A stretch of 64,000 nt of DNA, taken from the IMG/VR virus record IMGVR_UViG_3300025168_000039, positions 1 to 64,000 of that record. The stretch is one strand, 5' to 3'. Position numbers and translations under genes: made by a program. Positions 1-57,654 of the stretch are shown one piece after another. A model generated the notes under the pieces. The model saw nothing but the letters and a program-made list of their open reading frames with translations, did no database searches and was not told the origin of the DNA. Each line of letters begins with the position of its first letter. The first letter of the stretch is position 1. The DNA is from a virus.

Positions 1-1366
1 TAAGAGAAACTAATCCACCCTGTCGAAGAGATGCTACATTCTCTTCTTTATTCATATTAGCAACGGAAGCTAACCCACCAAAGTCAACAACTTCTGTACC
101 ACCAACCTCTGATACAAGTTCAGGATATTTTTCTTTAACTTCATTAGACATAGGACCAACAACTTTAGGATAAGTTTTAGGGTCATCTTTATATCTAAAC
201 GAATACATTGCTAAACCAGTAGCATCATCCATCCCTATTTTTTTAACATCTGTTTTTTCTCTAGGATCACTCTGTCCCATCGCACCAGCAGCCGATCCTA
301 ATGCTCCTATAAGTCCTGCAGTTTGTTGAAGATAAGTTGGTTGTGCTTGTCCTGGTCCTCTATTTGTAGTTGTACCGGCTGCACCTAATGCACCTTGAGT
401 AGGCTGAATAAACTGAGAGTACTGTTGAAGTGTAGCTTCTGGGAAAGTTCTTTCTTCTAAAAACTTTCTTTGTGTTATATCTAATTCAGCTTGGCTTTGT
501 CCTCTACGTGCTGCACCAACTGCTTCTAAACGTGCAAGCTCTTGTGCAGTCCCACTAGGTGCAACTTCTGCAAGTTGAGTAAGACTACGAGCAGCACCTA
601 ATCTACTCTCTTGTTGCGCTTGCGCTTGTTCCACTGCTTGTTTAAATGCTTGTCCTAAACCTGCAGTTCTTATATCGGTAATACCCTGCTCTAAATTACG
701 ACGGCGTTCTGCTTCTAGAATACCTTGCCTACTACCTCCAAATGCACCAGCCTTAACTGACTGTGCAGCTAATTCTTGTTCCTCTATGTCTCCTGCTCTC
801 CTACGCTCACGCTCTGCTATATCAATAACTTGAGAAGCATAAGGATTCATAAACCTTGAAATATCTGCATCAGTAGTTCCTAGACCAGCTAGTCCTGCAA
901 ACTGTGCAGCGGGTGTAGCAAAAGCTTGAGTTTGTCCTACTACATCAGAAGTAAGATCAAATGCTCTTTCTTGTTCTGTAGTAAAGTCAGCTATCTCTTG
1001 ACCCGTAAAAGGAACATAACCTTCTCCTTTACGAGTTTTATAAATGTCTTGTGCTTCAGAAAGAACTTCTTTAACATAAGGTTTTAATTCTTCAGGTATT
1101 TCTTTTGTTTGTACTGATGTTGTTTGAACAGGAGGAGGTGGGGGAGGTGAACCAAAGAACTGAACACACTTAGTATTTTCGTTTATCGTTCCTGCGCCAC
1201 CCATAGAACGAAGAACATCCATCTCATGTTTATTAACGTGAGCAAGTTCAGTATCTCCACATACGCCTTTACCAGATAAATCCTCATACAAGAAGTTGTA
1301 TAAGAATACTTTCTCCTCATTAGAGAAGTCAGACAAGACTTTGTTAAATTTATTTTTCATGCTCAT
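1..1366 (-). CDS. Internal virion/ejection (DNA transfer) protein with internal peptidase S74-like domain; runs off the window edge
   Basis: Manual translation MSMKNKFNKVL...GDTELAHVNKHE...EIPEELKPYV; homolog of 51951..54299; contains SDPREKTDVKKIG...MYSFRYK...VGPMSNEV...YPELV. Confidence 0.75.
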   Translation of the reverse strand, partial: MSMKNKFNKVLSDFSNEEKVFLYNFLYEDLSGKGVCGDTELAHVNKHEMDVLRSMGGAGTINENTKCVQFFGSPPPPPPVQTTSVQTKEIPEELKPYVKEVLSEAQDIYKTRKGEGYVPFTGQEIADFTTEQERAFDLTSDVVGQTQAFATPAAQFAGLAGLGTTDADISRFMNPYASQVIDIAERERRRAGDIEEQELAAQSVKAGAFGGSRQGILEAERRRNLEQGITDIRTAGLGQAFKQAVEQAQAQQESRLGAARSLTQLAEVAPSGTAQELARLEAVGAARRGQSQAELDITQRKFLEERTFPEATLQQYSQFIQPTQGALGAAGTTTNRGPGQAQPTYLQQTAGLIGALGSAAGAMGQSDPREKTDVKKIGMDDATGLAMYSFRYKDDPKTYPKVVGPMSNEVKEKYPELVSEVGGTEVVDFGGLASVANMNKEENVASLRQGGLVSL

Positions 1367-1368
1367 TG

Positions 1369-1797
1369 TTATAGTTCCTTAGTTAATACGGTGGCGTATT
1401 TTTTATAATTAAATTTCTCTAACTTTCTTTTCCAACCATCTCTTGCAATTATTTTAATATGCTTTACATTATTTTGTTTTGCATATTTAACAATGTCAGA
1501 GTTATCAGACACACAATAGTCTAACCATTTGCTTATCGTCCCTGTCTTCGCACCTACTAAACAGATAGTAAGAACATTATAATTAGGATATTTATCAAGT
1601 TGGGTTGTTGCAGCGACAACAATTCCATTCTCTTCATTAAGACCAACCCACAACGCCATTACTTCTGTTACTAATAAATTATAAATATCTTCTAAGTTGT
1701 ACTCTCCATGACTTCTCTCTAATGGTTTAGCTAGTAAATCTTTTACATGCGGCCATGTAACTTCTATACAGTTTGACCTTATCTTTGTAACTTCCAT
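1369..1797 (-). CDS. GNAT-like acyl/acetyltransferase of the virion morphogenesis module (P22 gp14/T7 gp13 position)
   Basis: 142 aa; LWV...YAKQNNVKHIKIIARDGWKR pattern; directly upstream of the ejection protein; homolog of 54301..54729. Confidence 0.55.
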   Translation of the reverse strand: MEVTKIRSNCIEVTWPHVKDLLAKPLERSHGEYNLEDIYNLLVTEVMALWVGLNEENGIVVAATTQLDKYPNYNVLTICLVGAKTGTISKWLDYCVSDNSDIVKYAKQNNVKHIKIIARDGWKRKLEKFNYKKYATVLTKEL

Positions 1798-3120
1798 TTA
1801 AGCTATCGAACTTAGTCCTTTCTCTGCATCAATTTCTTTTTGTTGCTCTTCTCTTCCAAATGCTTCTTTGCGAACATCTGTTAGAAAATCATCTAACTCA
1901 TCTGCACCAGCATCAGAAGAACCATTACCAAGCATAGACACTACATCAGCAGGTATAACATATTCATCTTTACTAAGAAGAGCAAAGTCAGGATTACCGC
2001 CTTCTACTCGGAAAGGTATTTCATCAGACATACCATCACCCTTTCCTTCTACTTGACCCTCAAAGTATTCTCCTACATCCCCGCCTTCTTGGAATCCTAA
2101 AAATTCTTTAACTTTAACACCATAAGATTTAATAGTATCTAGAATATCTCCATCAGAGTAATCTTTTAATTCTTCTGAGACTGCTTCCATTCTAGGTCTA
2201 ATTCCTGGCCTACCTCTTGCCACTGCCTTTCTATATTCGTCGTGATCTAAAAATTCTTTAGAGGCTTTATCAAATTTTCCTTGATTAATTAATCTTATAG
2301 TGTCAGTGCTTCCACCTAAACTTCCTCTAAACCATTCTCCTAATAAAGATACCTGTAAATCTTCTGGAAAAGAATCGAATTTTGGAATCCTTCTTCTAAT
2401 TTGAGGCAGTCTGTCTTTAATATCTTTTCTTAATAAAGTATCTGCTTCTTCTTCTGTTATTGTCTGTCCTGATTTTACATTAGCACTTGCGTGACCATGA
2501 CCTATGGTTAATCTATCACCTTTTGTAGGAATTTTTGCTGTTAGTAACAAACCTTCTTCATCTTTTAAAAAGTCTACAAATGGTTCTATGTTTTCATTTT
2601 CTATCCTGCCGCCTTCTTGCATAGGCATCATACTAGCTAATCCCTCTTGAGGAGCTACTTCACTGACTTGGATTTCTTCTTGCGCTTGAACCGGCCTATC
2701 CATTGGCATAGGCATTGCTGGCATAACTGTTCTAGTTCTATCGCGAAGTGATCCTGCCATACTTTTAACATCATCTAGATTTTCCTTTTCAGATTCTGCT
2801 TCTACACGTTTGTCTATCATGTTAGCTGCTTCACTACCCGCACCAAAAGCAGCCAGTGCTGCAGCAAATGGTCCTGTCTTCTGTGGGTTAGCCATAGCAT
2901 ACTGACCAGCTATATTAGTTACTTGACCAACAGCATCAGCAGGACTAAAGCCTACTGGCATACCTGTACCCATATCTACTTCTTGTTGACCTAAACTTTG
3001 TAAACCAGCTTGAGGAGAAGGCGTCTGCATTCGTTGTACTTCAGCAGGAGGACGTTGAGCAGCCTCACGTAAAACTTCTATTTCTGCCAGCTTATCTAAA
3101 CCGTCAATCATTATAAGCAT
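1798..3120 (-). CDS. Internal virion protein with embedded GH24-like lysozyme domain
   Basis: FLKDEEG...GDRLTIGHGH...ITEEEADTLLRKD lysozyme pattern between MQEGG and FQEGG; C-terminal GDGMSDEI..LLSKDEYVIPAD domain shared with 55429..57654. Confidence 0.75.
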   Translation of the reverse strand: MLIMIDGLDKLAEIEVLREAAQRPPAEVQRMQTPSPQAGLQSLGQQEVDMGTGMPVGFSPADAVGQVTNIAGQYAMANPQKTGPFAAALAAFGAGSEAANMIDKRVEAESEKENLDDVKSMAGSLRDRTRTVMPAMPMPMDRPVQAQEEIQVSEVAPQEGLASMMPMQEGGRIENENIEPFVDFLKDEEGLLLTAKIPTKGDRLTIGHGHASANVKSGQTITEEEADTLLRKDIKDRLPQIRRRIPKFDSFPEDLQVSLLGEWFRGSLGGSTDTIRLINQGKFDKASKEFLDHDEYRKAVARGRPGIRPRMEAVSEELKDYSDGDILDTIKSYGVKVKEFLGFQEGGDVGEYFEGQVEGKGDGMSDEIPFRVEGGNPDFALLSKDEYVIPADVVSMLGNGSSDAGADELDDFLTDVRKEAFGREEQQKEIDAEKGLSSIA

Positions 3121-5460: not shown

Positions 5461-5464
5461 TTTA

Positions 5465-6664: not shown

Positions 6665-6665
6665 T

Positions 6666-10061: not shown

Positions 10062-10736
10062 TTATACCCTATTTATTCGAGGTAAAAAATAAGCACTTGC
10101 TCTTTCTCTATCTTCATTCATAGCATTCGTAAGACGTTCTTCATACTCTGCTTTGAGAAGACCGATACGACCTACATCTATACCTGGACGTTTCATAGCC
10201 ATGTAGTAAGCTAACCCTGTAGTTAGGCAAGGCAAAAACCTACGAGATATGTCTGCATTCTGACCAGCAGATTTTGTTACATCTTCTGTATATTTAACCT
10301 GTTCTAGTTTTAAAATGTCTGTAGTATTCTCTGGGATAGGCCAAAGGAATAAAACAGGATTACCTCTTCCCCTACGAATAGCATATTGGTTAGGTCTTCC
10401 TGTTTGACTTTTACGAGGAATTTTTAAATACTCTTCCATTGTAATACGTTCAAGTTGAAGATCAACATCGTCTCGTCTAACAACTGCTTCAGTAATATCA
10501 ATGGTACTTGATGTTAAAGCATACGATGTTACACTAGTAGATACTGAAATAGCAGTTGTACCAGCAGTCCAAAGGAGAATGCCACGGTTCTGCCAATCTT
10601 GAAGAAGAAGATTAATCGACCTACGAGCAGATTTAGGTTCGTGTCCTAGTGTCTGCTCACCACCAATCATCTCCGTTGCTTCTTGAATAACTTCATCAAT
10701 GTCCATTGAGAAGTCGTATGTTCCGCTAGTAGCCAT
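10062..10736 (-). CDS. Head-tail adaptor-like protein
   Basis: SARRSINLL..DWQNRG, GRPNQY..LWPIP, FLPCLTTGLAYY pattern. Confidence 0.6.
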   Translation of the reverse strand: MATSGTYDFSMDIDEVIQEATEMIGGEQTLGHEPKSARRSINLLLQDWQNRGILLWTAGTTAISVSTSVTSYALTSSTIDITEAVVRRDDVDLQLERITMEEYLKIPRKSQTGRPNQYAIRRGRGNPVLFLWPIPENTTDILKLEQVKYTEDVTKSAGQNADISRRFLPCLTTGLAYYMAMKRPGIDVGRIGLLKAEYEERLTNAMNEDRERASAYFLPRINRV

Positions 10737-11095: not shown

Positions 11096-11245
11096 TTAGT
11101 AAAGACGATTATGAGATGCTTTGCCTGTAGCGCCACCTTTAGACATATACTTGCTTTTCTTCACCGCTCCACCCTTAGACATATACTTTGTTTTTTTCAT
11201 AGCGCCGCCCTTTTTCATCTTTGACATATACTTACTTTTTTTCAT
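11096..11245 (-). CDS. 49-aa basic peptide built from KxKYMSKGGA repeats
   Basis: MKKSKYMSKMKKGGAMKKTKYMSKGGAVKKSKYMSKGGATGKASHNRLY; AAGGA RBS; repeats differ at synonymous positions. Confidence 0.8.
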   Translation of the reverse strand: MKKSKYMSKMKKGGAMKKTKYMSKGGAVKKSKYMSKGGATGKASHNRLY

Positions 11246-11946: not shown

Positions 11947-12258
11947 TTAACACTTCCATCTTTTTCTAGCTTGCCTAAGTCTTGAGTTAGGATTCTTAGC
12001 AGCTTTAGGAAACTTCTTCATCTGTCCTGCTGATCTAGCGCAATAACTCTTACGTCTTGCTGCTCTCTTACCAGTAGGTTTAGATTCAGTTACAGCAGTT
12101 TTAAGTTTACTACCAGGATTTTGTCTGCGGTATTTAGCTACTCCTTTAGCAGTTAGACCAGCACCAGATTTAGTAGGACGTTTATGACCACCACCGATAG
12201 TCATTCCTTTCATGCCTGTGCCTTTTCGTACACTTTTCTTTTTTGTTCTTACTGCCAT
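11947..12258 (-). CDS. Basic protein (DUF6321-like)
   Basis: GLTAKG...RRKSYCARS...RKRWKC. Confidence 0.65.
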   Translation of the reverse strand: MAVRTKKKSVRKGTGMKGMTIGGGHKRPTKSGAGLTAKGVAKYRRQNPGSKLKTAVTESKPTGKRAARRKSYCARSAGQMKKFPKAAKNPNSRLRQARKRWKC

Positions 12259-12266: not shown

Positions 12267-12740
12267 CTATTTACCTTTCATAGCTCTGCCAAAACCTTTC
12301 TTGGCTACTCCACACCCTCTAGGCTTAATTTGACCACCTCCTGACTTAAATGTTTTTACCATTGTAGGCTTGCCGCCTACTCCTTGAGGTTTAGCTCTTT
12401 TCCTTTTAACAGCAGACTTCTTCTCAGAAGCTGACATACTTTTTGCTTTAGCAAGCGGCACACACTTAGGATATTTTCTTTTACTTCCTTTAGTAGATTT
12501 TCTACCACAAGGTTGATACTTACCATCCTTCTTTGGCGCACCAATGTCAACCCATTTCTCACCTACCCACTTCCGAAGACCGCCTCCCTTTTTCTTTTTA
12601 ACAGCCTTTTTCTTTTTCTTTCCACCAGGAGTTACTTTGCCACTACAAACTGCAGATGCATACATATTAGCATAAGCTGATGGATAAACATCAAACTTTC
12701 TTTTTGCTGCAGCTTTTCCTTTAGGACAAAGTTTAGCCAT
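12267..12740 (-). CDS. Basic protein (DUF5872-like)
   Basis: YPSAYAN, GLRKWVGEKWVD, YPKCVP motifs. Confidence 0.65.
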   Translation of the reverse strand: MAKLCPKGKAAAKRKFDVYPSAYANMYASAVCSGKVTPGGKKKKKAVKKKKGGGLRKWVGEKWVDIGAPKKDGKYQPCGRKSTKGSKRKYPKCVPLAKAKSMSASEKKSAVKRKRAKPQGVGGKPTMVKTFKSGGGQIKPRGCGVAKKGFGRAMKGK

Positions 12741-12742: not shown

Positions 12743-13714
12743 TTAAACCCAGCCGCCTCCTGTACCTCTAGTACGTTTATTTCCTTTACTAGCACCTATA
12801 TTAGGTTTAAAACCTCTGAGTGCAGCACGAACACCGCGAGGTGCTTTACTTACTTTCTTCTTCTTACCTTTTCCTACACGACCACCCTTTGAGTCGCCTT
12901 CATAATCTTCTGCTTCTTCTAGTCTTTCACGTACTTCATCAGACATTTTATTCCTGTCTACTTCATACATTGTTTCATATCCCTCTTTTCGAGATATTTT
13001 ACCAGGATAAAAAGCATAACGTCCACCTTCTGTTGGATCGTTTGTTTTAGTAGCACTAACAGTCGGTTCTTTTCTAGGTTTTTTTGTTTCAATAGTAGGA
13101 GTAGTAGTAGTAGGTTTTTCAATACGTTTCTTAGGAACAGGTTTTTTCTTTTCTCCATTTGTAAGAACAGCAGCGGTTCCTGCAACTGCTGCTGTAGCTG
13201 CGGCACCACGACGAATATTTTTAGCTTTTTTAACTACTCCTTTACCTACTGGTCTAGAACCTAGTGGTTTACCATCTGGTCCTTTACCAAATGTTGGTTT
13301 AACAAGATTACCTGGAGTTTTTTGAACTACTGTTTTTGTTTTACCATCTGCACTTTTAATAATTTTAGTTTTAGTCTTCCCACCAACTCTTTTATCTATT
13401 CCTAATGCTAATCTAACAGCATCTATATTATTTTTACCTACTGCTGCTTTAAGGTTTTTAATAGCTTTAGGTGCTAATGTTGCTAGTTTAGCAGTAATTT
13501 TTGCCATGCCTAATCCAGGAATAGCATACGAAAGTACCTCTGCAGCAAGTCTTGCATTCTTTCTTGTTTCTTGAGTTTTTGGTTTTGCTATTTGATTTTG
13601 TCTTTTAAGCTGGGCAGGAAAACCTGAGCGTAGTCTTTGACGAATAGTCATTTTTTCTACAGCTCTTTTTTGCTGTTCGTTCAGGTTTTTATATTTTTCT
13701 TCTTTTGTAGCCAT
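12743..13714 (-). CDS. Lys-rich low-complexity protein, probable internal head protein
   Basis: 323 aa; C-terminal DSKGGRVGKGK...RGVRAALRGF. Confidence 0.65.
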   Translation of the reverse strand: MATKEEKYKNLNEQQKRAVEKMTIRQRLRSGFPAQLKRQNQIAKPKTQETRKNARLAAEVLSYAIPGLGMAKITAKLATLAPKAIKNLKAAVGKNNIDAVRLALGIDKRVGGKTKTKIIKSADGKTKTVVQKTPGNLVKPTFGKGPDGKPLGSRPVGKGVVKKAKNIRRGAAATAAVAGTAAVLTNGEKKKPVPKKRIEKPTTTTPTIETKKPRKEPTVSATKTNDPTEGGRYAFYPGKISRKEGYETMYEVDRNKMSDEVRERLEEAEDYEGDSKGGRVGKGKKKKVSKAPRGVRAALRGFKPNIGASKGNKRTRGTGGGWV

Positions 13715-13729: not shown

Positions 13730-14077
13730 TTAAAAGCCACGTAAAGCAACACCTGCTCCACGGCCTGAAAAGTTATTTCTTTTTTTAACTTTTTGTTTTT
13801 TATTCTTGCCTTTTCCTACACGACCACCGTCAGACTCACCAACAGAATCACTATTAGGACCACTAATGTTACTTGCTAAATCATAAAAGTCAGGCATACT
13901 TTCTTGTTGCTGTTCATAAGCTGTATCAAACTCTGCGTCTGACATACCATCACCTTTACCATCACCTTTTTTACGCTTTCTTTTTCCTCCTCCTTTATTC
14001 TTAGCATCCAACTCTCTTTGGTACTTTGTAGCAGGACTTTCATTAGGGTTAAGAGGATCAAAAATAGGACCGGCCAT
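13730..14077 (-). CDS. Low-complexity protein, probable internal head protein
   Basis: C-terminal ESDGGRVGKGK...RGAGVALRGF shared with the neighbouring gene. Confidence 0.65.
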   Translation of the reverse strand: MAGPIFDPLNPNESPATKYQRELDAKNKGGGKRKRKKGDGKGDGMSDAEFDTAYEQQQESMPDFYDLASNISGPNSDSVGESDGGRVGKGKNKKQKVKKRNNFSGRGAGVALRGF

Positions 14078-14088: not shown

Positions 14089-14745
14089 TTAATTAGTATT
14101 AGTTACTAGATTGTCATCTGCACCAGCAGGACTTGCAGGACTTTGCATATCATCTCTACGTGTTCTACGTGCCTGATTGCGCTGTAGTTCTAGAAGCTGT
14201 GCATATCGTTGTTCAAATAATTGTGAAGTAGGATAGTCTTTTTGAAAGACCATAGCCTCTATCATAGAAGCATTAAAAAGAAGGTCATAACAAAAGTCAG
14301 TATAATAGTTTTCAGGAGTTGCGGATGTTAATGTTACTGGGCGACTAACATGTACAACTTGTCCACTGTAAGTAGAAGCAGGAGTAGGCGCAATCAAAAC
14401 TGTAGAATTATTACGAGGAGCGTAATATCTTGGTTCATCAGTCGATGCGCTTACAGGCCAGTAGTCATTAATATATTCATCTGTTCTTTGCAACAAATTA
14501 ATTTTTGTAGAGTTACTTACAATATTAATATTCTTAACTATTCTTGTTCCTGTAGGTAAAGTAAGAATATTATTCCCAGAAGAAACAGCAACAGAAGTAT
14601 AAGAAACTAAACCATAGTCATCTAAGTCTTTTGTTAAACGCTCTTCAGCACGATTGACCATATTAGGAATATAGTTAACAAACTCTGTTCCTTCATTCTC
14701 AGATGCTTGAATAATATCGTTTACCAAATAAGTATAATTAACCAT
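14089..14745 (-). CDS. Head-tail adaptor/connector protein
   Basis: MxNYxxL, AEERL, PRYYA..IAPTP, DLLFNASMIEA pattern; downstream of MCP. Confidence 0.65.
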   Translation of the reverse strand: MVNYTYLVNDIIQASENEGTEFVNYIPNMVNRAEERLTKDLDDYGLVSYTSVAVSSGNNILTLPTGTRIVKNINIVSNSTKINLLQRTDEYINDYWPVSASTDEPRYYAPRNNSTVLIAPTPASTYSGQVVHVSRPVTLTSATPENYYTDFCYDLLFNASMIEAMVFQKDYPTSQLFEQRYAQLLELQRNQARRTRRDDMQSPASPAGADDNLVTNTN

Positions 14746-15193: not shown

Positions 15194-16138
15194 TTAGGAC
15201 GAACCAGAAGCACCATAATAGCTACGCCAATCAGAAAAGCCAAAGCTGTAACGCTCACGCGCTTTAAACCTAAGATTGCCTGTATCGAAATCAGGTTCCA
15301 TCTTAGTTTGAAGAGGCGAACGTACAAACATTTTAGCTCCGTTCGGACAATCAGTACGCAGATACCAAGCATTTCCATCTTGGAACCTACGGTTTACATA
15401 AAAGCCACCAGGAACTAGACCCTGATTACGGACGCTGTTAATGTCATTGACATTCGTTGCACCGTTTGCAGCAGTCGTTGGGTTAACCCCAATTGTCGTT
15501 GACATCGTGCTATTCAAAATTTGGTCTGCCGTAAAGGCAAGGTCCGAAGGCACATGAAGCGACTCAACCTGTAAACCAATAAGAATACCACGATCATCTG
15601 TTGCTTTTGAGATAGTGATCAACGCAGACTCAAGAGACGCTTCTGAAAGATCAGTAGCACCAAGAGAATTTGATTGAACACCACCACCAACTACAGGATG
15701 ACTAACGCTAAAGAAAGGCTGTCCGTCCCCACCAGGACTTCCTGCCGCAAAGCCGTTGTTGAAAACATCAGCAGCTTTAACTTGCTTAGTGTTAGCCATT
15801 GCACGGGCAAGACCACGCGCACGTAGTTTAGCAAAAGTGTCATAAAGATTATCTTCCATAGCTTCTTCAGTTACTGCAAAAGCAAGAGCTATAGTCTCGT
15901 GACTGTAACGAGAAGCATAGCCTTCTTGTGCATCATCAAACTGAACAGCAGCGCCTTCACTTTTAACAGGTGCTGTGCCAAAGCCGGTAAATAGAACTTC
16001 TTCCTCAAATGCACGATCTGATTGTTCAATATCAAAGAGTGAAGCATGTTCATTGTCCACATCCGTGTATTCAATACCAAATACAGCATTTAAACCAGGG
16101 AGCAGTTCTTTCGCAATACTAGAGCGATTAATAGCCAT
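15194..16138 (-). CDS. Major capsid protein (HK97 fold)
   Basis: MAINRSSIAKELLPGLNAVFG...FKARERYSFGFSDWR; position after scaffold and decoration genes. Confidence 0.9.
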   Translation of the reverse strand: MAINRSSIAKELLPGLNAVFGIEYTDVDNEHASLFDIEQSDRAFEEEVLFTGFGTAPVKSEGAAVQFDDAQEGYASRYSHETIALAFAVTEEAMEDNLYDTFAKLRARGLARAMANTKQVKAADVFNNGFAAGSPGGDGQPFFSVSHPVVGGGVQSNSLGATDLSEASLESALITISKATDDRGILIGLQVESLHVPSDLAFTADQILNSTMSTTIGVNPTTAANGATNVNDINSVRNQGLVPGGFYVNRRFQDGNAWYLRTDCPNGAKMFVRSPLQTKMEPDFDTGNLRFKARERYSFGFSDWRSYYGASGSS

Positions 16139-18394: not shown

Positions 18395-18814
18395 TTAATT
18401 TGAAAGATTAAAAGTTGGGTCTAGTAATTCTGGACTTTGTACTTTCATAATTATTTGGTCATCAAACAAGAGAAGTAGTTTAAGACCTTTATATACAAGT
18501 TTTTGTCCGCTAAACTTTCCATAACAAACATAGTCACCTGTGGCACACCATTTTCCTAGCGGGAACTTATCTTCATCCCCATATGCTAGATCACCTAGCT
18601 TTAGTACTTTACCTACAGTTGTAAGGTATGCTATATCATCCTGTAATTTTTCAGGGATAATAATACCACCTTTAGTTTTTTCTTTAACTATTACTGGTTG
18701 AACTAAAACGTGATAACCAGGAATACCCGGCAAATCATTTACATCAATTAAACTATTATCTGGGTTTACCCAATCTGAATTATTAATTGACTTCTCTAGT
18801 TGTACGGATTGCAT
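18395..18814 (-). CDS. groES: Phage co-chaperonin GroES-like protein
   Basis: VLVQP..EKTKGGIIIPE..GKVLKLG..GDYVCYGKFSG..LLLFDDQII. Confidence 0.85.
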   Translation of the reverse strand: MQSVQLEKSINNSDWVNPDNSLIDVNDLPGIPGYHVLVQPVIVKEKTKGGIIIPEKLQDDIAYLTTVGKVLKLGDLAYGDEDKFPLGKWCATGDYVCYGKFSGQKLVYKGLKLLLLFDDQIIMKVQSPELLDPTFNLSN

Positions 18815-19008
18815 TAATCTTCTTCCTCATATATTCGATGTTTAACTATATGTTTTAGTAAGTCCTGTGCAAACTCAATACCTTCTATCAGACCTACTGC
18901 TTGACGATACTCATCGTAACTAGAAGCGTTTCCATACGCAAGAGATTTTTTTGTTTCCTCTATCTTTTCTTTATACTTTAAATTTAACTCGTCCCAAAAT
19001 TCCATCAC
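18814..19008 (-). CDS. Small head-module protein
   Basis: GNASSYDEYRQAVGLIEG; translationally coupled to both neighbours. Confidence 0.7.
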   Translation of the reverse strand: MMEFWDELNLKYKEKIEETKKSLAYGNASSYDEYRQAVGLIEGIEFAQDLLKHIVKHRIYEEED

Positions 19009-30253: not shown

Positions 30254-30258
30254 GTAAG

Positions 30259-33483: not shown

Positions 33484-33489
33484 GGGATT

Positions 33490-33789: not shown

Positions 33790-33790
33790 A

Positions 33791-33976: not shown

Positions 33977-33983
33977 GATAGAC

Positions 33984-35000: not shown

Positions 35001-35082
35001 GATTTTAAAATTCCAGAACTAATTAAAAAACCTACAGTAAGTTCTTACGAACTGTAGGTTATTTAATTATAAGGAGAAATAC

Positions 35083-51950: not shown

Positions 51951-54299
51951 CTATCGAGTGGAAGTGGGTACTATGTTAGAACCAGTAGGCGGGGTAGGCA
52001 TTAGACTAGGAGGTTTCTCGCCCATTAGCCTTGTATATTCTGCTATTATTTTTTCTTTACTACCTAATAATATAGGATCATTTAATACTTTACCAGCAAA
52101 GATTACCGCAACCGAAGAATCTCTTTTTGCTGCAGCATCACCCATTAAAGCTTGAACAGTTGCAATATTCTGTTCTATAGTTGCTGCGTCTTGTTCGTTG
52201 TCAGTTGCATAAACTTTCAGTTGACCTTTATTGATTCTGGTTCCTATAACCCTTCCCTGATCATTTGCAATAGGCAGCATAAAGGGAAGACCCGAAACCA
52301 TTTTTGGGGCAACCTGTCCAATAACAAACTTTCTTCTGTCCCGTTTACTTTTATTCTTATTATCATGTGCTTTAGCAGCAGCTTTCGCCCCAGCCGTCAA
52401 TCTATCTGCTTGCTGTTCATGTATTTTGAGAGCAACATTAGCAACTCTAGTACTTGCCTCATCCACTGTTTTGGCTAAACGATCTTTATCACCAGTACTA
52501 TCTATCTGTAGATTTAATCCAGCTATCTTACCCTGCCTCACTTGTTTAGCTTGAGCTTCTGTGATATTAGATATTCCGGCTAAGTTAGCTAACTCTTTAT
52601 CTTTAATACCTTGTAAGTTTTTTCTCTTTTCTCTTAATAATTTTCTTTCATCTTTATAACTACCTCGTAAATCACTCAATGCTTTTGAATCTAGAAAGCC
52701 AGATGCTACTGCTTGAAGAGGAGTCTTACCAGCAGGGTCTGCTCCTAGTATACCAAGACCTCCCTTGATAAGAGCAAAGTATTTTTCTCTACTAAGATCG
52801 TCTTTTTCTTTATCATACGCTTCTGTTAGATCAGTTCTTCGTTTACCAAAATCAACATTCTTTAAAGCTTCTAAATAATCTTTACGCTCTTGAGTTTGGG
52901 TTGGTGTTAATAATGGGTTTATCTTACCTCTTATAGCTTCTCTCTGTCTTGCTGATTCTAATCGTCTATCAACCATATCTTTTTGAGTTCTTTGGTATGC
53001 GCTTAAAAAAGATTCTGGGTCTGGACCAACTGGAAGAATTGGTTGCATTGCATAGCCTTTATAAGGGTCTACACTAGGATCACCATAAATAGAAGTCGTT
53101 TGGCGACTACCAGCTATATTTCTAGGATTACCTACATTGCCAGCCTGTGCATATTTACCAATCTTACCACCATTAGCAAGACCAACAAGCCCACCTTCTT
53201 TTTTACTAAAAGCTCCAAAAGCACCAGCCGTACCTAAAGCAGCTAAACCAAGACCTCCTATCTGTTGAAAGGCAGATGGAGTTGCAGTTGTTCCTGTATC
53301 TCTTTTAACTGTACTAGCAGGAATTGGTGCAGAATAACCTCTAATAATAGATTGATAATCTTGAAGAGTTCTTTCAGGAAAAGTTCTTGCAACTTCATAT
53401 TCTTGTTGTGCAATATCCAATGCCTGTTGTCCAACACCTCTTCGTTGAGCGCCGGTAGTTTCAAGTGCTGTTAGTTCTCGCATAGTTTGGCCTGGAACAG
53501 CCGTAGCTAAAGAACCAAACTGTGATCCAGCACTTCTCTCTCTGTTTCTTTGTTGAGCAAGTCTATTCTGTGCATCTTCAAATGCCGCTGCTTGTCCCTT
53601 CGCTTGAATATCTCCCAACCTTTGTTGTAAATTTCTATTTGCTTCAGCCTCTAAAATCCCTTGTCGAGAACCTCCAAATGCTCCAGCGGCAACAGCCTTC
53701 TGTCCTATTCTTTGTCTCTCAACATCACCTGTTCTTTCAAGTTCTCTCTTTTGAATGTCAATTACATTTTGAATATAGGGATTCATAAACTGACCAACAG
53801 ATGCAGCATTAGGTGCTAATGCACTTGAGGCAGTTAAAGCTTCTGCTGTTCTAAAGTAAGGTTGACTTGCTCCTTGTAGATTTTGAACCCCTGCAAATGC
53901 TTGTTCTTGCTCTGGACTAAAGGAAGCAATACGAGGGCCAGCAAAGGGAACATAGCCTTCTTCTTCTCTTCTCTCTGATAGAGCTTTTGATTTTTCTAGA
54001 ATATCCGTAACAAATGGTTTTAATTCATCAGGAATAGTTTCCTTCTGAATAGTACTTTGAGAAGGAGCAGGAGCAGAACCTCCACCTGGACTACCACCCA
54101 TGAACTGAATTAATCCTGTATTTGGATTGATTGTACCAGACCCACCCATGTCTCGAAGAACTTGCATTTCTTCAGTATTGACATGAGCTAGTTCAGTATC
54201 TCCTCCTATACCTTCACCAGAAAGATCAGTATATAAACAATTATATAACTCTATCTTTTCAGTTGTAGATAATTTAGAAACAATATTTTTTACAGACAT
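51951..54299 (-). CDS. Internal virion/ejection (DNA transfer) protein
   Basis: GDTELAHVN leader, FMNPYIQNV, AGAFGGSRQG; homolog of 1..1366. Confidence 0.75.
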   Translation of the reverse strand: MSVKNIVSKLSTTEKIELYNCLYTDLSGEGIGGDTELAHVNTEEMQVLRDMGGSGTINPNTGLIQFMGGSPGGGSAPAPSQSTIQKETIPDELKPFVTDILEKSKALSERREEEGYVPFAGPRIASFSPEQEQAFAGVQNLQGASQPYFRTAEALTASSALAPNAASVGQFMNPYIQNVIDIQKRELERTGDVERQRIGQKAVAAGAFGGSRQGILEAEANRNLQQRLGDIQAKGQAAAFEDAQNRLAQQRNRERSAGSQFGSLATAVPGQTMRELTALETTGAQRRGVGQQALDIAQQEYEVARTFPERTLQDYQSIIRGYSAPIPASTVKRDTGTTATPSAFQQIGGLGLAALGTAGAFGAFSKKEGGLVGLANGGKIGKYAQAGNVGNPRNIAGSRQTTSIYGDPSVDPYKGYAMQPILPVGPDPESFLSAYQRTQKDMVDRRLESARQREAIRGKINPLLTPTQTQERKDYLEALKNVDFGKRRTDLTEAYDKEKDDLSREKYFALIKGGLGILGADPAGKTPLQAVASGFLDSKALSDLRGSYKDERKLLREKRKNLQGIKDKELANLAGISNITEAQAKQVRQGKIAGLNLQIDSTGDKDRLAKTVDEASTRVANVALKIHEQQADRLTAGAKAAAKAHDNKNKSKRDRRKFVIGQVAPKMVSGLPFMLPIANDQGRVIGTRINKGQLKVYATDNEQDAATIEQNIATVQALMGDAAAKRDSSVAVIFAGKVLNDPILLGSKEKIIAEYTRLMGEKPPSLMPTPPTGSNIVPTSTR

Positions 54300-54300
54300 T

Positions 54301-54729
54301 CTATAGTTCCCTCGTAATAACTGTTGTATATTTTTTAAAATCATATTTAGGTGTAAACTTTAACCAGCCATCTCTAGCATATCCTTCAAGTCTTTTTACA
54401 CCTTGTTCTCTTGCAAACTTAATAATAGGAGAATCTTCACTCATTCCATAATCAAACCATTTATGAAGTGTGTGAGACTTCGTTCCAATGTAAGGCATTG
54501 CTAAAACTTTATACTGTGGAAAAGTAATAAGTTGTGTTATGCAAATTCCTAAGATACCATCTTCTTCATCTGCACCTACCCAAAGTTGTAAGTAATCACC
54601 TAATAACTCTTTGTAGATATCATTTAAATCTTTTTCCCCTTGAGTTCTTTTTAAAGGTTTTTCTATAAACTCAACAACATGAGGCCATGTTACATCAACA
54701 CAGTTAGGTTCAATTTTTATTAACTTCAA
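54301..54729 (-). CDS. GNAT-like acyl/acetyltransferase
   Basis: Homolog of 1369..1797; FAREQGVKRLEGYARDGW. Confidence 0.55.
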   Translation of the reverse strand: MKLIKIEPNCVDVTWPHVVEFIEKPLKRTQGEKDLNDIYKELLGDYLQLWVGADEEDGILGICITQLITFPQYKVLAMPYIGTKSHTLHKWFDYGMSEDSPIIKFAREQGVKRLEGYARDGWLKFTPKYDFKKYTTVITREL

Positions 54730-54732
54730 TTT

Positions 54733-55419: not shown

Positions 55420-55428
55420 AACTTAATC

Positions 55429-57654
55429 CTATGCTAAAAATGATTCTAAGCCCTGTTTAATAGGCTTCTGCTGTTTTTTATTTCCTGTTGCTTTATGTCT
55501 TATGTTTTTAACAAAACCATCTAACTTCTTTGCACCTGAAGTAGAAGACCCACTTCCTATCATAGCAACTGTATCTGCAGGTATAACATATTCATCTGGA
55601 CTTAATAAAGCCATATCAGGATTATCACCTTCTACTTCAAATAAAACTTGATCTGATTGTCCATCTCCAGGTCCAATTACTTTACCTTCGAAGTATTGTC
55701 CAATCCCTCCTCCTTTATTATAAAGTTCGACATCAGGAATCCGATGAAACATATTTAAACTTTCTTCCATTCGTCTTTCTATGTGAGGTACTCCAGGACG
55801 TAAAAAAAGATCTGATATAGCTTTAGCTCTATCTTCTACTGCTCCCATTCCTTTACCTAATAAAATTTTTCTTAGCCTTTGTCTATTTCCTGGACCAGCA
55901 TCATATGGAAGTACTCCTTCTCCTTCAGTACTAGTCATTTGTTCATGGGCATATTCCATTTGATTTTGTTCATTATTTGGTAATTTATTATCTTTTAGAT
56001 ATCTTTTATAATCTTTCTGTCTACCTTGTGTAAATTGAAACAAGCCCAGACCTTGATTTAATCCTTTTTTCTTTCCACTCTCTCTTTGAGTACCTTTAAA
56101 GGTAGGTGCCTCAACTGCTATATTACCCATAATAGCAGCTATGCTTTCACTAGGATACTTTTTTTCTTTATAAAAATCATAAACTACTTTTTGTTTAGGA
56201 GTAAAAGAATTTTTTTTTGAGCCATTGCGGGGAGTACCCCCATTAGCAAGGCCAATAAGACCACCTTTATTAAACCCGAAATCTGCTCCAACATTAAAAC
56301 CATCTCCTCCTTGACCATAAGGTGTAGCGATAGCTCCAGGGTCTTGATTTACCTGTCCTACCATAGCATTTAATGTTGCTCCACCTACTGCATCCGAAAT
56401 AAATTTATCAACTTCCGATGCTGCTTTCTTCTTCTGTAAAATTTCTTCTTCTTTTCTTTTATTTTCTGAATCAACCGTTTCTTCTTCGACAACTGTATCG
56501 GTTTCTTCTACAGCCACTTCACCTCCTTCAGCTAATGTAACTGTATCATCATCAACATATCTAAATGGTGTTAAGCCTTGGCTAATCCCACCTTCTAAAG
56601 CAAGTCTAGTATAATCTTCTTGTGTAAAACCTTCTTGAGTAGGTTCACCACCTTCTAGGCGTAAAGGTCTACGAGTATATGTATCTTCTAATGCAGCTAA
56701 ACCTCCATCTGCATTAGGATCAAATTCTGGAGGAGTCATCACAGCTTCCATCGCACCAAATGCTAGAGGAGTATAGGTTGATGGTCTTTGCAGTAATGCA
56801 CCTGCCATTTGAGTAGTTGTTAGTGGTGCCCCACCCGCTTGTTCTAAAGCTTTTTGAGCAGCCACCGCACCTTTTATGCCAAAGTCTCTAACAAATGTTG
56901 TTGCTGGAATATTTTGACCAGCAGCAAATGGGGCAGCATAGGCGACTCCTGATTGTTTAGCTATTTCTGCAGTAACAGGAACCGTTTGAAATCCTTGTGA
57001 TGCACCTGCCATTTGAGTAGTTGTTAGTGGTGCCTGACCCGCTGCCGGGAAAAAGGATGGTGATACTGGTCCCACAGATACTGGTCCCATGTTTGAAAGA
57101 GCCGTTCCAGCATTTGCTCCTGCAGAAGCAACATTAGTACCAGTTTGAAGTCCTTGTGAAGTTAGTGCCTGATTAGATGCCTGTTGTGCTGCTGCTGTAG
57201 AAGCACCTTCAACGCCAAGTCCTGCTTCTAATGCAGCCGAACTTGGACCCATCATACCTGTCATAACACCAGCGGTAGCACCAGATATTAAACCACCTAC
57301 AAGAGCATCAGTTGGTGATTGACCTGCCGCAAGTCCACCAGCAAATGAACCAACACCAGCACCAACACCAGCACCGGCAGCAGCACCAAAAGCACTACCT
57401 CCAAATGCTGTACCAAGACCCGGACCAAGCAATACAGTACCAGCAATCGCACCTACGGCTGGTAACAATGATCTAAAATTAAAAGCTTCTGGTAATCCCG
57501 TTTCTGGATTTACAGTTAGTTGGCCCATACTAGATAGACCAGCTAATTCATCTGGGCGCACATGCAACAGTTCTGTATCACCATACCGTCCTTGCGCAGC
57601 CATTAGCCCTGCTATGCCACTATACGGAGCCTCTTGATTCCTCATCGCTACCAT
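55429..57654 (-). CDS. Internal virion protein with hydrophobic Gly-rich segment and embedded phage-tail-lysozyme-like domain
   Basis: GRYGDTELLHV leader; SIAAIMGNIAVE..GLGLFQFT lysozyme pattern; C-terminal domain shared with 1798..3120. Confidence 0.75.
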   Translation of the reverse strand: MVAMRNQEAPYSGIAGLMAAQGRYGDTELLHVRPDELAGLSSMGQLTVNPETGLPEAFNFRSLLPAVGAIAGTVLLGPGLGTAFGGSAFGAAAGAGVGAGVGSFAGGLAAGQSPTDALVGGLISGATAGVMTGMMGPSSAALEAGLGVEGASTAAAQQASNQALTSQGLQTGTNVASAGANAGTALSNMGPVSVGPVSPSFFPAAGQAPLTTTQMAGASQGFQTVPVTAEIAKQSGVAYAAPFAAGQNIPATTFVRDFGIKGAVAAQKALEQAGGAPLTTTQMAGALLQRPSTYTPLAFGAMEAVMTPPEFDPNADGGLAALEDTYTRRPLRLEGGEPTQEGFTQEDYTRLALEGGISQGLTPFRYVDDDTVTLAEGGEVAVEETDTVVEEETVDSENKRKEEEILQKKKAASEVDKFISDAVGGATLNAMVGQVNQDPGAIATPYGQGGDGFNVGADFGFNKGGLIGLANGGTPRNGSKKNSFTPKQKVVYDFYKEKKYPSESIAAIMGNIAVEAPTFKGTQRESGKKKGLNQGLGLFQFTQGRQKDYKRYLKDNKLPNNEQNQMEYAHEQMTSTEGEGVLPYDAGPGNRQRLRKILLGKGMGAVEDRAKAISDLFLRPGVPHIERRMEESLNMFHRIPDVELYNKGGGIGQYFEGKVIGPGDGQSDQVLFEVEGDNPDMALLSPDEYVIPADTVAMIGSGSSTSGAKKLDGFVKNIRHKATGNKKQQKPIKQGLESFLA
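56796..57034. repeat. Exact 35-bp direct repeat in coding sequence (APLTTTQMAGA)
   Basis: ATGCACCTGCCATTTGAGTAGTTGTTAGTGGTGCC at 56796-56830 and 57000-57034. Confidence 0.9.

What the first reader, a model, noticed from the sequence alone, without database searches (positions are those of the whole stretch)
1..57654. A shared diglycine motif marks putative internal virion proteins: candidate processing or capsid-targeting system
Seen: the pattern [MFYLK]-x-[KENDQS]-G-G-x-[VIL], with some variants, recurs in otherwise unrelated proteins. Examples: LRQGGLV (gene 1..1366); MQEGGRI and FQEGGDV (1798..3120); MKKGGAM, MSKGGAV, MSKGGAT (11096..11245, which is little else); KKKGGGL and FKSGGGQI (12267); DSKGGRV (12743); ESDGGRV (13730); KKEGGLV-GLANGGKI (51951); LAEGGEV, FNKGGLI-GLANGG, YNKGGGI (55429). 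In the large proteins it sits at domain boundaries. I did not notice it in MCP, scaffold, adaptors or nozzle. Known: adenovirus protease cleaves (M/L/I)xGG|x and the ASFV protease cleaves GG|x in core polyproteins. From memory, lambda tape-measure gpH has FATGG/YATGG around its processed C-terminal part. Inference: the motif is a maturation cleavage site or a docking signal that loads cargo into the prohead.
Basis: partly seen in the sequence, partly recalled or inferred. Interest (0 to 1): 0.8.

Follow-up and report, generated by a model that had tools for sequence, protein, structure and literature searches.

The report
Gly-Gly junction tag on phage ejection proteins
A short peptide (bulky residue, any, polar, Gly, Gly, any, Val/Ile/Leu) really does mark the joints between modules of the proteins this marine short-tailed phage probably packs in its head and injects. 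The same tag sits at the one precisely mapped cutting site of a phage tape-measure protein (T5), so it may explain how such proteins are loaded or cut, but which of the two is still open.

Summary
All listed instances are at the stated places. On the whole contig it is confined to the ejection-protein block (8 vs 0.76) and the small basic proteins (6 vs 0.36).

Corrections:
- The contig is two related ~54-kb phage genomes joined head to tail, so several "unrelated" carriers are orthologs.
- One hit is the GroES mobile loop.

The tag is conserved at the peptide level. It brackets swappable cell-wall cassettes (GH24, tail lysozyme, SLT, LysM) in a family of at least 3,260 protein clusters. It is enriched out of sample in Pelagibacter phage HTVC027P.

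No adenain-like, Ulp-like, C39, HK97-type, T4-type or ClpP/S49 protease is encoded.

Precedents I checked myself:
- T5 pb2 is cut at R1127|AEGGMM.
- P22 gp7 is cut at E20|KGGKGG by host OpdA.
- Lambda gpH has FATGG…YATGG in its processed Gly-rich region.
- The tags bracket the resolved modules of crAss001 gp45.

Best reading: a hinge-plus-docking junction tag, clipped by a non-phage protease at some joints (0.42). Obligate cleavage site is the main rival (0.30).

The scan has found this tag before on other DNA. I found no published description.

The parts
8..28 (-). Tag LRQGGLV in ejection protein ej1 (gene 2..1366, cut by the contig end; full length 656 aa in a near-identical relative)
113..271 (-). 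Peptidase_S74 (self-cleaving intramolecular chaperone) domain of ej1, starting ...FAKM|SDPREKTDIQKI. It is inserted at the joint where the ortholog ej2 has only the tag.
2602..2622 (-). Tag MQEGGRI, 14 residues upstream of the GH24 lysozyme cassette of the 440-aa internal protein (1798..3120)
   Evidence: G170 and G171 invariant
2227..2562 (-). Phage_lysozyme (GH24) cassette, aa 187-298
2074..2094 (-). Tag FQEGGDV opening the conserved C-terminal module (G346 and G347 invariant)
1801..2115 (-). Conserved C-terminal module GG-x-[VI]-G-x-Y-F-E-G..GDGMSD..ALLSKDEYVIPADVV..; at least 3,260 protein clusters carry it
11096..11245 (-). 49-aa basic peptide made of three KYMSKGGA[MV]KK repeats, ending HNRLY; conserved in 8 distinct variants in relatives
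12267..12740 (-). 157-aa basic protein (pI 10.6): tags KKKGGGL and FKSGGGQI, then tail RGCGVAKKGFG
12743..13714 (-). 323-aa basic protein: DSKGGRVGKGKKKK...RGVRAALRGF, C-terminus GTGGGWV
13730..14077 (-). 115-aa basic protein: ESDGGRVGKGK...GRGAGVALRGF-COOH
53160..53204 (-). Double tag KKEGGLVGLANGGKI between the N-domain and the variable C-part of ejection protein ej2 (51951..54344)
56515..56535 (-). Tag LAEGGEV in the 741-aa internal protein (55429..57654)
56236..56274 (-). Double tag FNKGGLIGLANGG, 15 residues upstream of the tail-lysozyme cassette
55765..56193 (-). Phage_lysozyme2 cassette, aa 488-630. It is a different family from the cassette in the ortholog 1798..3120.
55702..55722 (-). 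Tag YNKGGGI opening the conserved C-terminal module (55432..55746)
18659..18679 (-). KTKGGII: mobile loop of the phage GroES homolog. It matches the regex and is not an internal-protein tag. It is a possible lead (resembles GGIVLTG).

Best explanation
The motif is a conserved short linear 'junction tag', roughly bulky/basic - x - polar - G - G - x - V/I/L/M - G/A/S. It is carried by proteins that this HTVC023P-type marine podovirus most likely packs in the head and expels through the tail.

Shown:
- It joins modules of the two large ejection-type proteins.
- It brackets a cell-wall-degrading cassette that is freely exchanged between relatives.
- It separates the conserved N-domain of the 'DNA ejection protein' from its variable C-part.
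- In a set of very basic small proteins encoded between the two adaptor genes, it heads a Lys-rich C-terminal tail that ends G-x-G-x-A-x-[RK]-G-[FY].

Inferred mechanism: the Gly-Gly acts as a hinge or turn, and the following x-V-x-(L/Y) makes a short strand. That strand docks by strand addition on a shared partner inside the prohead, portal or tail lumen. The modules are thereby loaded, held extended and released in order.

Also inferred: at some joints, above all in front of the muralytic cassette and at short N-terminal leaders, the exposed residues just ahead of the GG are clipped. The enzyme is not encoded by the phage (a host enzyme, or an assembly-dependent event). T5 pb2 and P22 gp7 are the precedents.
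For: 1. Enrichment and restriction to the internal and basic proteins. Out-of-sample enrichment in HTVC027P and RW. 42 vs 3.1 in 20 database homologs.
2. Peptide-level selection. Both diglycines are invariant in 14 homologs at 29-85% identity while the domain between them changes. The two GGL[VI]GLANGG copies differ at synonymous sites. Both classes share G at +3, which background GG sites lack.
3. Cassette exchange at the tags: GH24, Phage_lysozyme2, SLT and LysM sit in the same scaffold, with tags 12-17 residues before and 13-51 after.
4. The tag is kept where the joint is already severed. HTVC027P gp83 ends at the joint and gp84 begins MKTLRRPMFRKGGNVG. RW GP064c begins MFEDETEEETGGAL. ej1 has a self-cleaving S74 domain and still keeps LRQGGLV.
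5. Tags occur where a cut would be pointless: GTGGGWV-COOH and RW GP066c ...YMDGGRV-COOH.
6. In solved virions, tags lie at the edges of docked pieces. In crAss001 gp45, GG427 opens and GG562 follows the portal-bound domain 425-552, and GG209 precedes the tail-bound helix 214-245 (PMC10172136). Lambda gpH MRDGGLF lies inside residues 818-849, which are bound to gpI (PMC12617516).
7. Clipping precedents: T5 pb2 R1127|AEGGMM. pb2 has only 2 GG.[VILM] sites in 1219 aa, so the chance of a cut 0-3 residues upstream of one is about 0.007 (PMC10038345). P22 gp7 E20|KGGKGG is cut by host OpdA (PMC8402733).
8. No phage protease of the usual kinds is present.
9. Both tags of the 440-aa protein fall in coil of pLDDT 26-34, flanking the only moderately confident domain (weak evidence).
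Against: - No direct evidence that any of these proteins is in the virion, that the tag binds anything, or that it is cut in this phage.
- No docking partner is identified.
- Both AlphaFold models are of low confidence (pLDDT 42.5 and 42.7).
- Homology of the C-terminal module to the tape-measure C-terminal module or to the crAss001 gp45 portal-bound domain is not demonstrated.
- CRP-901, a relative with the same head genes, shows no enrichment.
- The explanation is composite (dock plus occasional clip), so it is harder to refute than a single claim.
- The regex and the protein categories were partly defined after seeing the data.
- The two genome units in the contig are not independent samples.
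Confidence: 0.42

Rival explanations
1. Obligate maturation cleavage site. The large internal proteins are polyproteins and the basic proteins are precursors. All are cut at or just before each tag, during or after assembly, by a host protease or an unrecognised phage or autocatalytic activity. This releases the muralytic enzyme, membrane-active parts and small basic peptides.
For: - The T5 pb2 cut at R1127|AEGGMM separates its muralytic domain (PMC10038345). The identical RAEGGM[ML] occurs as the first tag of relatives of the 741-aa protein (L093).
- P22 gp7 is cut E20|KGGKGG by host OpdA.
- Lambda gpH loses about 14 kDa from the Gly-rich region that holds FATGG, and the catalyst is unknown (PMC12617516).
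- Tags sit in predicted coil at domain edges.
- An S74 self-cleaving domain at the same joint in ej1, and gene fission there in HTVC027P and RW, show that the parts work as separate chains.
- The 49-aa peptide is nothing but three tags.
Against: - No protease family was detected.
- The tag is retained after fission and after the S74 domain, where a cut is no longer needed.
- Tags 2-3 residues from C-termini cannot be useful cleavage sites.
- Conservation is strongest on the C-terminal side of the GG (x-[VI]-G), which suits recognition of the downstream piece rather than a GG|x protease.
- crAss001 gp45, with six or more tags, is described as one chain spanning tail and capsid, with no cleavage reported (PMC10172136).
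- By my own knowledge of the enzyme, not tested here, OpdA acts on short peptides, so it suits N-terminal leaders but not internal joints.
Confidence: 0.3
2. Inherited flexible linkers without specific function. Gly-rich joints were simply carried along with modules that spread by recombination. The K/G-rich composition of basic proteins produces KGG[KR]V by chance.
For: - Many carriers are homologs, including the two genome units in one contig.
- Class A tails are low-complexity K/G-rich sequence.
- CRP-901 lacks enrichment.
- The loose pattern [KENDQS]GG is not enriched (57 vs 52.7).
Against: - Within-protein shuffles control for composition and still give 6 vs 0.36 in basic proteins and 8 vs 0.76 in the internal block.
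- Diglycines and the +2 V/I/L are invariant while flanking domains are replaced by unrelated families.
- The same tag occurs in proteins with no detectable homology: HTVC027P gp41 and gp84, T5 pb2, lambda gpH, crAss001 gp45.
Confidence: 0.12
3. Chaperonin handle. The tag mimics the GroES mobile loop (GGIVLTG) and lets host GroEL, working with the phage's own GroES, hold these long metastable proteins until they are loaded.
For: - The regex hits the GroES mobile loop in all four genomes examined (KTKGGII, KTKGGLI, KTKGGII, TKGGIY).
- Class B consensus GG-[LM]-[VIL]-[GAS]-L resembles GGIVLTG, the GroEL-binding part of the loop (PMC3521247).
- A GroES gene is conserved in the head module of the whole phage group.
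[quoted passage not shown] This is cited as chaperonin dependence (Zweig & Cummings 1973, as cited in PMC5649160 and PMC3357383).
Against: - The third hydrophobic residue of the GroES loop is usually G/A/S in the tag.
- Class A tags have K/R at +1.
- CRP-901 has GroES but no tag enrichment.
- Lambda and P22 carry tags but no GroES gene (my knowledge).
- The resemblance spans only about 5 residues and could be chance.
Confidence: 0.07
4. DNA-level recombination joint. The tag-coding DNA is conserved as microhomology that promotes cassette swapping, as proposed for the glycine-rich motifs of T-even gp38 adhesins.
For: - Cassettes are exchanged exactly at the tags.
- An earlier first-reader note calls the two GGL[VI]GLANGG copies near-identical 30-bp segments.
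Against: - The two copies share 26 of 30 nt and differ at three synonymous third positions.
- Other tags use different Gly codons (GGC GGC, GGT GGA, GGA GGT, GGC GGG), so nothing beyond amino-acid conservation is seen.
- A 6-15-nt identity is too short for efficient homologous exchange.
Confidence: 0.05

Closest known systems
C-terminal Gly-rich module of siphovirus tape measure proteins: T5 pb2 (cut after R1127) and lambda gpH (gpH* + gpHC)
   Same: - The tag sequence is the same: T5 PR|AEGGMMYPG; lambda HFATGGFTG ... GYATGGYVG ... MRDGGLF.
- The layout is the same: tag, then an 'x-G-E-[FY]-V' core, then tag. Compare ALLSKDEYVIPADVV here and LSDGEYVIDAETV ... YMDGGRV in phage RW.
- The order is the same: hydrophobic or TM stretch, tag, muralytic domain.
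- Both are proteins that leave through the tail.
- Cleavage is documented, with an unknown catalyst (PMC10038345, PMC12617516).
   Different: - No detectable sequence homology. hhalign E=0.14 for lambda, with no PHROG or Pfam link.
- Those are tail-lumen proteins of long-tailed phages. These are head-packed proteins of a podovirus.
- Here there are many tags per protein and a separate set of small basic carriers.
P22 ejection proteins gp7 and gp20
   Same: - A podovirus without a prohead protease.
- gp7 loses 20 N-terminal residues just before KGGKGG, through host OpdA.
- gp20 begins MATWQQGINSGGFLAG, with GG at residues 11-12 as in HTVC027P gp84 and RW GP064c.
- The procapsid-binding fragments (gp7 21-154, gp20 1-314) start at these tags (PMC8402733).
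- gp7 has the same Q/A-rich middle and Gly-zipper end as proteins here.
   Different: - No homology shown.
- P22 has one tag per protein, not strings of tags.
- Removing the gp7 leader has little effect on function.
Cargo protein C1 (gp45) of Bacteroides phage crAss001 (PF25725; Bayfield et al. 2023, PMC10172136)
   Same: - Tags (SAYGGPLEF, AFAEGGGL, KAFGGSLF, NAFGGWL, FAYGGDT) bracket the two resolved, docked pieces.
- The C-terminus KAKGGKVRTKKKKGLTY resembles the class A basic tails.
- It is a confirmed virion cargo that spans the portal.
   Different: - No sequence homology.
- The bulky residue sits closer to the GG (φ-GG or φ-x-GG).
- No cleavage is reported.
- The host and phage order are different.
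Adenovirus AVP (M/L/I)xGG|x and ASFV pS273R GG|x polyprotein processing
   Same: A diglycine in core or internal proteins, including small basic ones.
   Different: - No CE-clan protease is encoded.
- The register differs. The hydrophobic residue is at -3 from the first G, which would be P5.
- Documented phage cuts lie before, not after, the GG.
- There is strong conservation after the GG.
T4 capsid targeting sequence of internal proteins
   Same: A short peptide proposed to load cargo into the prohead.
   Different: - The T4 CTS is N-terminal and is removed by the phage prohead protease gp21 at L/I-x-E (my knowledge).
- No such protease is here.
- The tags here are internal, repeated or C-terminal.

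Membership tests
Adenain/Ulp-type (clan CE) GG|x viral polyprotein processing | A virus-encoded CE-clan cysteine protease (Peptidase_C5 / C48) | tested here: not met
   PF00770 and PF02902 searched in six frames over the whole 106,894-bp contig at E<=10: no match.
Adenain/Ulp-type (clan CE) GG|x viral polyprotein processing | Site consensus (M/L/I)-x-G-G|x, with the hydrophobic residue at P4 | tested here: not met
   The bulky residue is three positions before the first G, which would be P5. Known phage cuts at this tag lie 1-2 residues before the GG.
Prohead-protease maturation (HK97 S78, T4 S77, ClpP/S49 types) | A prohead protease gene in the head module | tested here: not met
   PF04586, PF03420, PF00574 and PF01343 give no match at E<=10. 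The 333-aa gene after GroES has no Pfam or PDB match, and its nearest named Atlas clusters are scaffold-like at a weak 0.87.
Double-glycine leader peptides (C39 peptidase / ABC exporter) | C39 peptidase domain; N-terminal leader ending GG | tested here: not met
   PF03412 is absent. Most tags are internal or C-terminal.
Tape-measure C-terminal Gly-rich module (lambda gpH / T5 pb2 type) | Tag - GE[FY]V core - tag layout in a protein expelled through the tail | tested here: met
   FQEGGDV...ALLSKDEYVIPADVV here. NMARGGYAV...LSDGEYVIDAETV...YMDGGRV in RW GP066c. FATGG...HRGEFVFTKEA...YATGG in gpH.
Tape-measure C-terminal Gly-rich module (lambda gpH / T5 pb2 type) | Detectable sequence homology to tape-measure families | tested here: not met
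   PHROGs and Pfam give no hit for the C-terminal module, while the gpH C-terminus hits 10+ TMP PHROGs. hhalign probability is below 1%. Only one relative's annotation calls it a tape measure.
Tape-measure C-terminal Gly-rich module (lambda gpH / T5 pb2 type) | Proteolytic processing at the tag during assembly | not testable with these tools
   Needs virion mass spectrometry of a cultured relative.
Peptidase_S74 intramolecular chaperone (self-cleaving) | S74 domain with the S-D-x-R-x-K start | tested here: met
   Only in ej1: PF13884, 30.5 bits (cut-off 22), at nt 113-271, starting SDPREKTDIQKI. It is not present at any other tag, so S74 does not explain the motif.
crAss cargo protein 1 domain (PF25725) | Sequence match to PF25725 / gp45 residues 425-552 | tested here: not met
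   Pfam, the PDB profile search and hhalign are all negative. The fold test was inconclusive because the model has pLDDT 42.7.
GroES mobile-loop-like GroEL-binding segment | GG followed by three hydrophobic residues (GGIVL) | tested here: inconclusive
   Class B has GG-[LM]-[VIL], then G/A/S, then L. Class A has K/R at +1. Binding cannot be tested here.

The most novel reading that the evidence does not exclude
One short Gly-Gly tag is a common, so far undescribed signal of proteins that travel through phage tails: podovirus ejection proteins, crAss cargo and siphovirus tape measures. It specifies where these proteins dock in the particle and where a host-dependent activity clips them. A stronger form adds that the tag works by mimicking the GroES mobile loop, which would tie the old observation of GroE-dependent T5 tail-protein cleavage to a defined sequence. 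If so, it would answer how lambda gpH and T5 pb2 are cut, which the 2025 Ur-lambda paper states is unknown. It would also give a portable tag for loading foreign cargo into phage heads.
Probability: 0.2. Interest if true: 0.85.

Novelty: new variant of a known kind. Interest (0 to 1): 0.68.

Why it matters
- Ejected internal proteins are the least understood parts of tailed phages. How they are recruited, kept unfolded enough to pass the portal, and processed is open.
- For lambda gpH the catalyst of cleavage is explicitly stated to be unknown (PMC12617516).
- A sequence tag shared by HTVC023P-type pelagiphage relatives (among the most abundant viruses in the sea), P22, T5, lambda and crAss001 would turn these separate puzzles into one testable question.
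- The tag also gives a practical rule for parsing giant modular virion proteins into modules.
- It predicts cleavage or docking sites for mass spectrometry and cryo-EM.
- It suggests where cargo can be grafted into internal proteins.
- The bracketing of interchangeable GH24, tail-lysozyme, SLT and LysM cassettes shows how these phages retool their cell-wall-piercing enzyme.

Tried and rejected
1. DNA microhomology as the conserved entity. Rejected: the copies differ at synonymous sites.
2. Asn-dependent self-cleavage at LANGG. Rejected: the residue before the second GG varies (N, E, R, A, T, G).
3. Phage-encoded protease. Eight protease families were searched over the contig and only S74 was found, once. 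The 333-aa gene after GroES gave nothing in Pfam, PDB or the Atlas beyond weak scaffold-like neighbours.
4. Solved relatives of the 797-aa, 741-aa and 333-aa proteins: none.
5. AlphaFold2 of the 440-aa protein and, with a deeper alignment, of the 105-aa C-terminal module. Both had pLDDT of about 42, so no fold search was run, because it would be meaningless.
6. Homology of the C-terminal module to crAss001 gp45, lambda gpH or T5 pb2C by hmmsearch against PDB, Pfam, PHROGs and hhalign. All were negative or non-significant.
7. OMP beta-signal or PDZ-ligand reading of the ...ALRGF-COOH and ...GGxV-COOH ends. Considered by eye only. The register does not fit the beta-signal, so it was dropped.
8. 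Literature search for a prior description of the tag: none found in the searchable library. This does not prove there is none.
Both were repeated correctly.

Full report
WHAT THE WINDOW IS

The window is the first 64 kb of a 106,894-bp viral contig. PHROGs and Pfam identify these podovirus genes:
- large terminase, 21579..23198
- portal, 19008..21533
- a GroES homolog, 18395..18814
- major capsid protein, 15194..16138
- two SU10-type adaptors, 14089..14745 and 10062..10736
- a 622-aa virion protein
- 'DNA ejection protein' homologs, 2..1366 and 51951..54344

The nearest cultured relatives are Pelagibacter phages HTVC027P and HTVC023P, Roseobacter phages CRP-901/902 and Caulobacter phages such as RW. 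Portal identity is 33-43%.

The contig holds two co-linear genome units that have diverged to 25-75% amino-acid identity. A 491-bp segment is 99.8% identical at 33357-33847 and 88081-88571. Near-identical relatives of unit 1 come from 54,081-bp and 53,175-bp contigs. In one of them, the gene cut by the contig's left end continues as a 656-aa protein followed by the giant gene seen at the contig's right end. The contig is therefore most simply two related ~54-kb phages joined through a shared segment. This matters for the finding because several 'unrelated' motif carriers are orthologs from the two units.

THE OBSERVATION

Over the whole contig the matches are sharply partitioned:

| Category | Observed | Expected |
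|---|---|---|
| Ejection-protein block | 8 | 0.76 |
| Small basic proteins | 6 | 0.36 |
| Other virion-module proteins (51) | 1 | 1.0 |
| Non-structural proteins (81) | 1 | 1.05 |

The one hit among the other virion-module proteins is the GroES mobile loop.

The regex was fitted to these data, so I applied it unchanged to three cultured relatives:

| Genome | Observed | Expected | P |
|---|---|---|---|
| HTVC027P | 8 | 1.6 | <0.002 |
| RW | 5 | 1.3 | 0.01 |
| CRP-901 | 1 | 1.5 | not significant |

In 20 database homologs of the lysozyme-bearing protein it gives 42 against 3.1. The motif is real but specific to certain lineages.

TWO FLAVOURS OF ONE TAG

Class B sits in the large proteins. Its consensus is [LFV]-x-x-[LF]-[ANK]-[EQK]-G-G-[LM]-[VIL]-[GAS]-L-x-x-G-G. 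It often comes as a doublet such as KKEGGLVGLANGGKI, and there are up to about seven copies per protein in relatives.

Class A heads the C-terminal tails of very basic proteins (pI 9.6-12, 19-37% K+R) encoded between the two adaptor genes. Its form is [KS]-G-G-[KRQ]-[VI]-G-K, then a Lys-rich spacer, then G-x-G-x-A-x-[RK]-G-[FY]. I found 51 distinct such tails in 80 related loci. The 49-aa gene 11096..11245 is three KYMSKGGA[MV]KK repeats plus ...HNRLY, and it is conserved in eight variants.

Both classes share G at the third position after the GG, which ordinary GG sites in the other proteins lack. Hybrids such as GGKVNYRKAGGKV and GGRVNYAMG link the two classes.

SELECTION IS ON THE PEPTIDE, AT MODULE JOINTS

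In an alignment of 14 homologs of the 440-aa protein (29-85% identity), both diglycines are invariant while the sequence between them is not alignable.
- The 440-aa protein carries a GH24 lysozyme (aa 187-298) between tags at 167 and 343.
- Its ortholog in the other unit carries an unrelated 'tail lysozyme' (aa 488-630) between tags at 461 and 645.

A profile of the conserved C-terminal module finds at least 3,260 protein clusters. In these the cassette is GH24, Phage_lysozyme2, SLT and/or LysM, or something Pfam does not recognise. The tag lies 12-17 residues before the first cassette domain and 13-51 after the last.

The two GGL[VI]GLANGG copies share 26 of 30 nucleotides and differ at synonymous positions. 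Other tags use different glycine codons. I therefore see no conservation beyond that of the peptide.

AlphaFold2 places both tags of the 440-aa protein in coil of pLDDT 26-34 next to the only moderately confident domain. The model is poor overall (pLDDT 42.5).

THE JOINT IN THE EJECTION PROTEIN

The N-domain (about 90-370) is conserved, and the tag follows it in 51951..54344.
- In 2..1366, a Peptidase_S74 self-cleaving chaperone domain (...FAKM|SDPREKTDIQKI) is inserted at exactly that joint, and the tag LRQGGLV follows it.
- Homologs of this N-domain in other phages are often annotated as S74 or endosialidase-chaperone proteins.
- In HTVC027P the protein is split. gp83 ends at the joint and gp84 begins MKTLRRPMFRKGGNVG.
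- In RW, GP065c is followed by GP064c, which begins MFEDETEEETGGAL.

The two halves therefore work as separate chains in several lineages. Yet the tag is kept on the downstream half even when nothing remains to be cut apart.

RW's counterpart of the lysozyme protein ends ...YMDGGRV-COOH, and 12743..13714 ends GTGGGWV-COOH. A cut at either place would remove two or three residues.

IS THERE A PROTEASE?

Six-frame searches of the whole contig found nothing at E<=10 for Peptidase_C5 (adenain), C48 (Ulp), C39, S78 (HK97), S77 (T4), ClpP or S49. Controls in reference genomes responded. The adenovirus/ASFV analogy fails its defining test.

KNOWN CASES, CHECKED HERE

An earlier follow-up in this scan, on another genome, claimed that T5 cuts its tape measure just in front of such a tag. 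I verified it. The published site is 'after R1127' (PMC10038345), and the sequence reads ...NSFVPR|AEGGMMYPG.... pb2 has only two GG.[VILM] sites in 1219 residues, so the chance of a cut 0-3 residues upstream of one is about 0.007. The cut separates the muralytic domain from a hydrophobic stretch. That is the same order as in the 741-aa protein here. RAEGGM[ML] is also the first tag in relatives of that protein.

[quoted passage not shown] By mass, a 14-kDa fragment implies a cut near residues 710-720.

P22 gp7 is cut E20|KGGKGG by host OpdA. Deleting the leader has little effect. The procapsid-binding fragments of gp7 (21-154) and gp20 (1-314) begin at tag-like sequences (PMC8402733). gp20 has GG at residues 11-12, like HTVC027P gp84 and RW GP064c. 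None of the 92 proteins of 100 aa or more on this contig has GG.[VILM] within residues 5-24. This comparison was made after the fact.

In crAss001 gp45, a confirmed cargo protein, tags bracket the two resolved docked pieces. The C-terminus is KAKGGKVRTKKKKGLTY, like class A. No cleavage is reported (PMC10172136).

In lambda, the last tag MRDGGLF lies inside residues 818-849, which are bound to the hub protein gpI.

WHAT I COULD NOT SHOW

Homology between the C-terminal module here and the tape-measure module or gp45's portal-bound domain is not supported by HMMER, PHROGs, Pfam or hhalign. The likeness is one of layout. A second AlphaFold2 run on the module with a deeper alignment again gave pLDDT 42.7, so I ran no fold search. 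Nothing here shows that these proteins are in the virion, that the tag binds a partner, or that it is cut in this phage.

READING

The evidence fits a junction tag with a docking or hinge role best. At some joints it is also the place where a non-phage activity clips the chain (0.42).

The main rival is that every tag is an obligate cleavage site (0.30). The difference is directly testable by virion mass spectrometry of a cultured relative.

Minor rivals:
- functionless inherited linkers (0.12)
- a GroES-mobile-loop mimic that recruits GroEL (0.07); this is interesting because T5 tail assembly and tail-protein cleavage are host-chaperonin dependent according to PMC5649160 and PMC3357383, which cite Zweig & Cummings 1973
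- a DNA-level recombination joint (0.05)

NOVELTY

I found no published description of the tag. The scan has noted it on other phage genomes. This window adds:
- the cassette-bracketing evidence at scale
- the fission and S74 comparison at one joint
- the class A basic tails
- independent confirmation of the T5, lambda, P22 and crAss001 correspondences

I rate it a new variant of a known kind, the known kind being processing and junction sites of tail-transiting phage proteins. Interest is about 0.68.

Noticed in passing
window 1-64000 and contig 64001-106894; repeats at 33357-33847 and 88081-88571: The 107-kb contig is two co-linear, diverged (25-75% aa identity) ~54-kb podovirus genomes joined through a 491-bp segment that is 99.8% identical. 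Near-identical relatives of unit 1 are 53-54-kb contigs. Most likely this is an assembly path through a shared segment, or a real insertion of one genome into the other. Another IMG/VR relative sits on a 100,092-bp contig (L071), so the same thing may recur.
   Followed up: partly
window 11947-12258 vs contig 68245-68556; also 12267-12740 vs 68564-69088: The 103-aa basic DUF6321 protein is 98% identical between the two units, which are otherwise 45-65% identical, and the neighbouring gene is 89% identical at DNA level. This suggests recent exchange or very strong constraint. PHROGs finds this ~70-aa domain at the C-terminal end of proteins of 99 to 928 aa.
   Followed up: no
window 12267-12740 (first 37 aa): The N-terminal MAKLCPKGKAAAKRKF[DK]VYPSAYANMYAS..CSGK domain (weak DUF5872 match) is 92% identical to HTVC027P gp49. 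That phage otherwise shares 30-40% identity.
   Followed up: no
window 18395-18814 and 17296-18297: A GroES homolog with a ~30-aa N-terminal extension sits in the head module. It is followed by a conserved 333-aa protein with no family, which is probably the 'kinesin-like' gene reported downstream of viral GroES in virioplankton (PMC5649160). The pair is conserved in HTVC027P, CRP-901 and RW.
   Followed up: partly
window 54200-54300 and 57550-57640 (N-termini of 51951..54344 and 55429..57654); also 2..1366: Both large internal proteins share an N-terminal motif G-x-x-GD[TS]-x-L-[AL]-H-V-x-x-x-E-[ML]-x-x-L-[RS]-[SA]-[ML]-G-x-x-T-[IV]-NP-x-T-G (42% identity over 45 aa). It is conserved in all relatives and of unknown function, and could be another loading or anchoring element.
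   Followed up: no
window 29978-33287 vs 33490-36744: A tandem block of five paralogous genes. The 555-aa and 553-aa proteins are 57% identical, and four small neighbours have two positions swapped. The block lies immediately on either side of the 491-bp shared segment, so it may be the two phages' versions of the same genes brought side by side by the join.
   Followed up: no
window 7421-8293 and 63631-63999 (continues to 64386): Glycine-rich proteins (42 and 19 GG pairs; Pfam Gly_rich_2). They are probably gp38-like adhesins. I excluded them from the motif statistics because of low complexity.
   Followed up: no
window 11232-11909; contig 70452-71573: Unit-specific insertions among the basic-protein genes. 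Unit 1 has a 225-aa protein (phrog_3704, labelled 'ferredoxin'). Unit 2 has a 373-aa PP-loop (SGGFDS) ATPase-like protein. Neither is shared, so neither can be a conserved partner of the tag.
   Followed up: no
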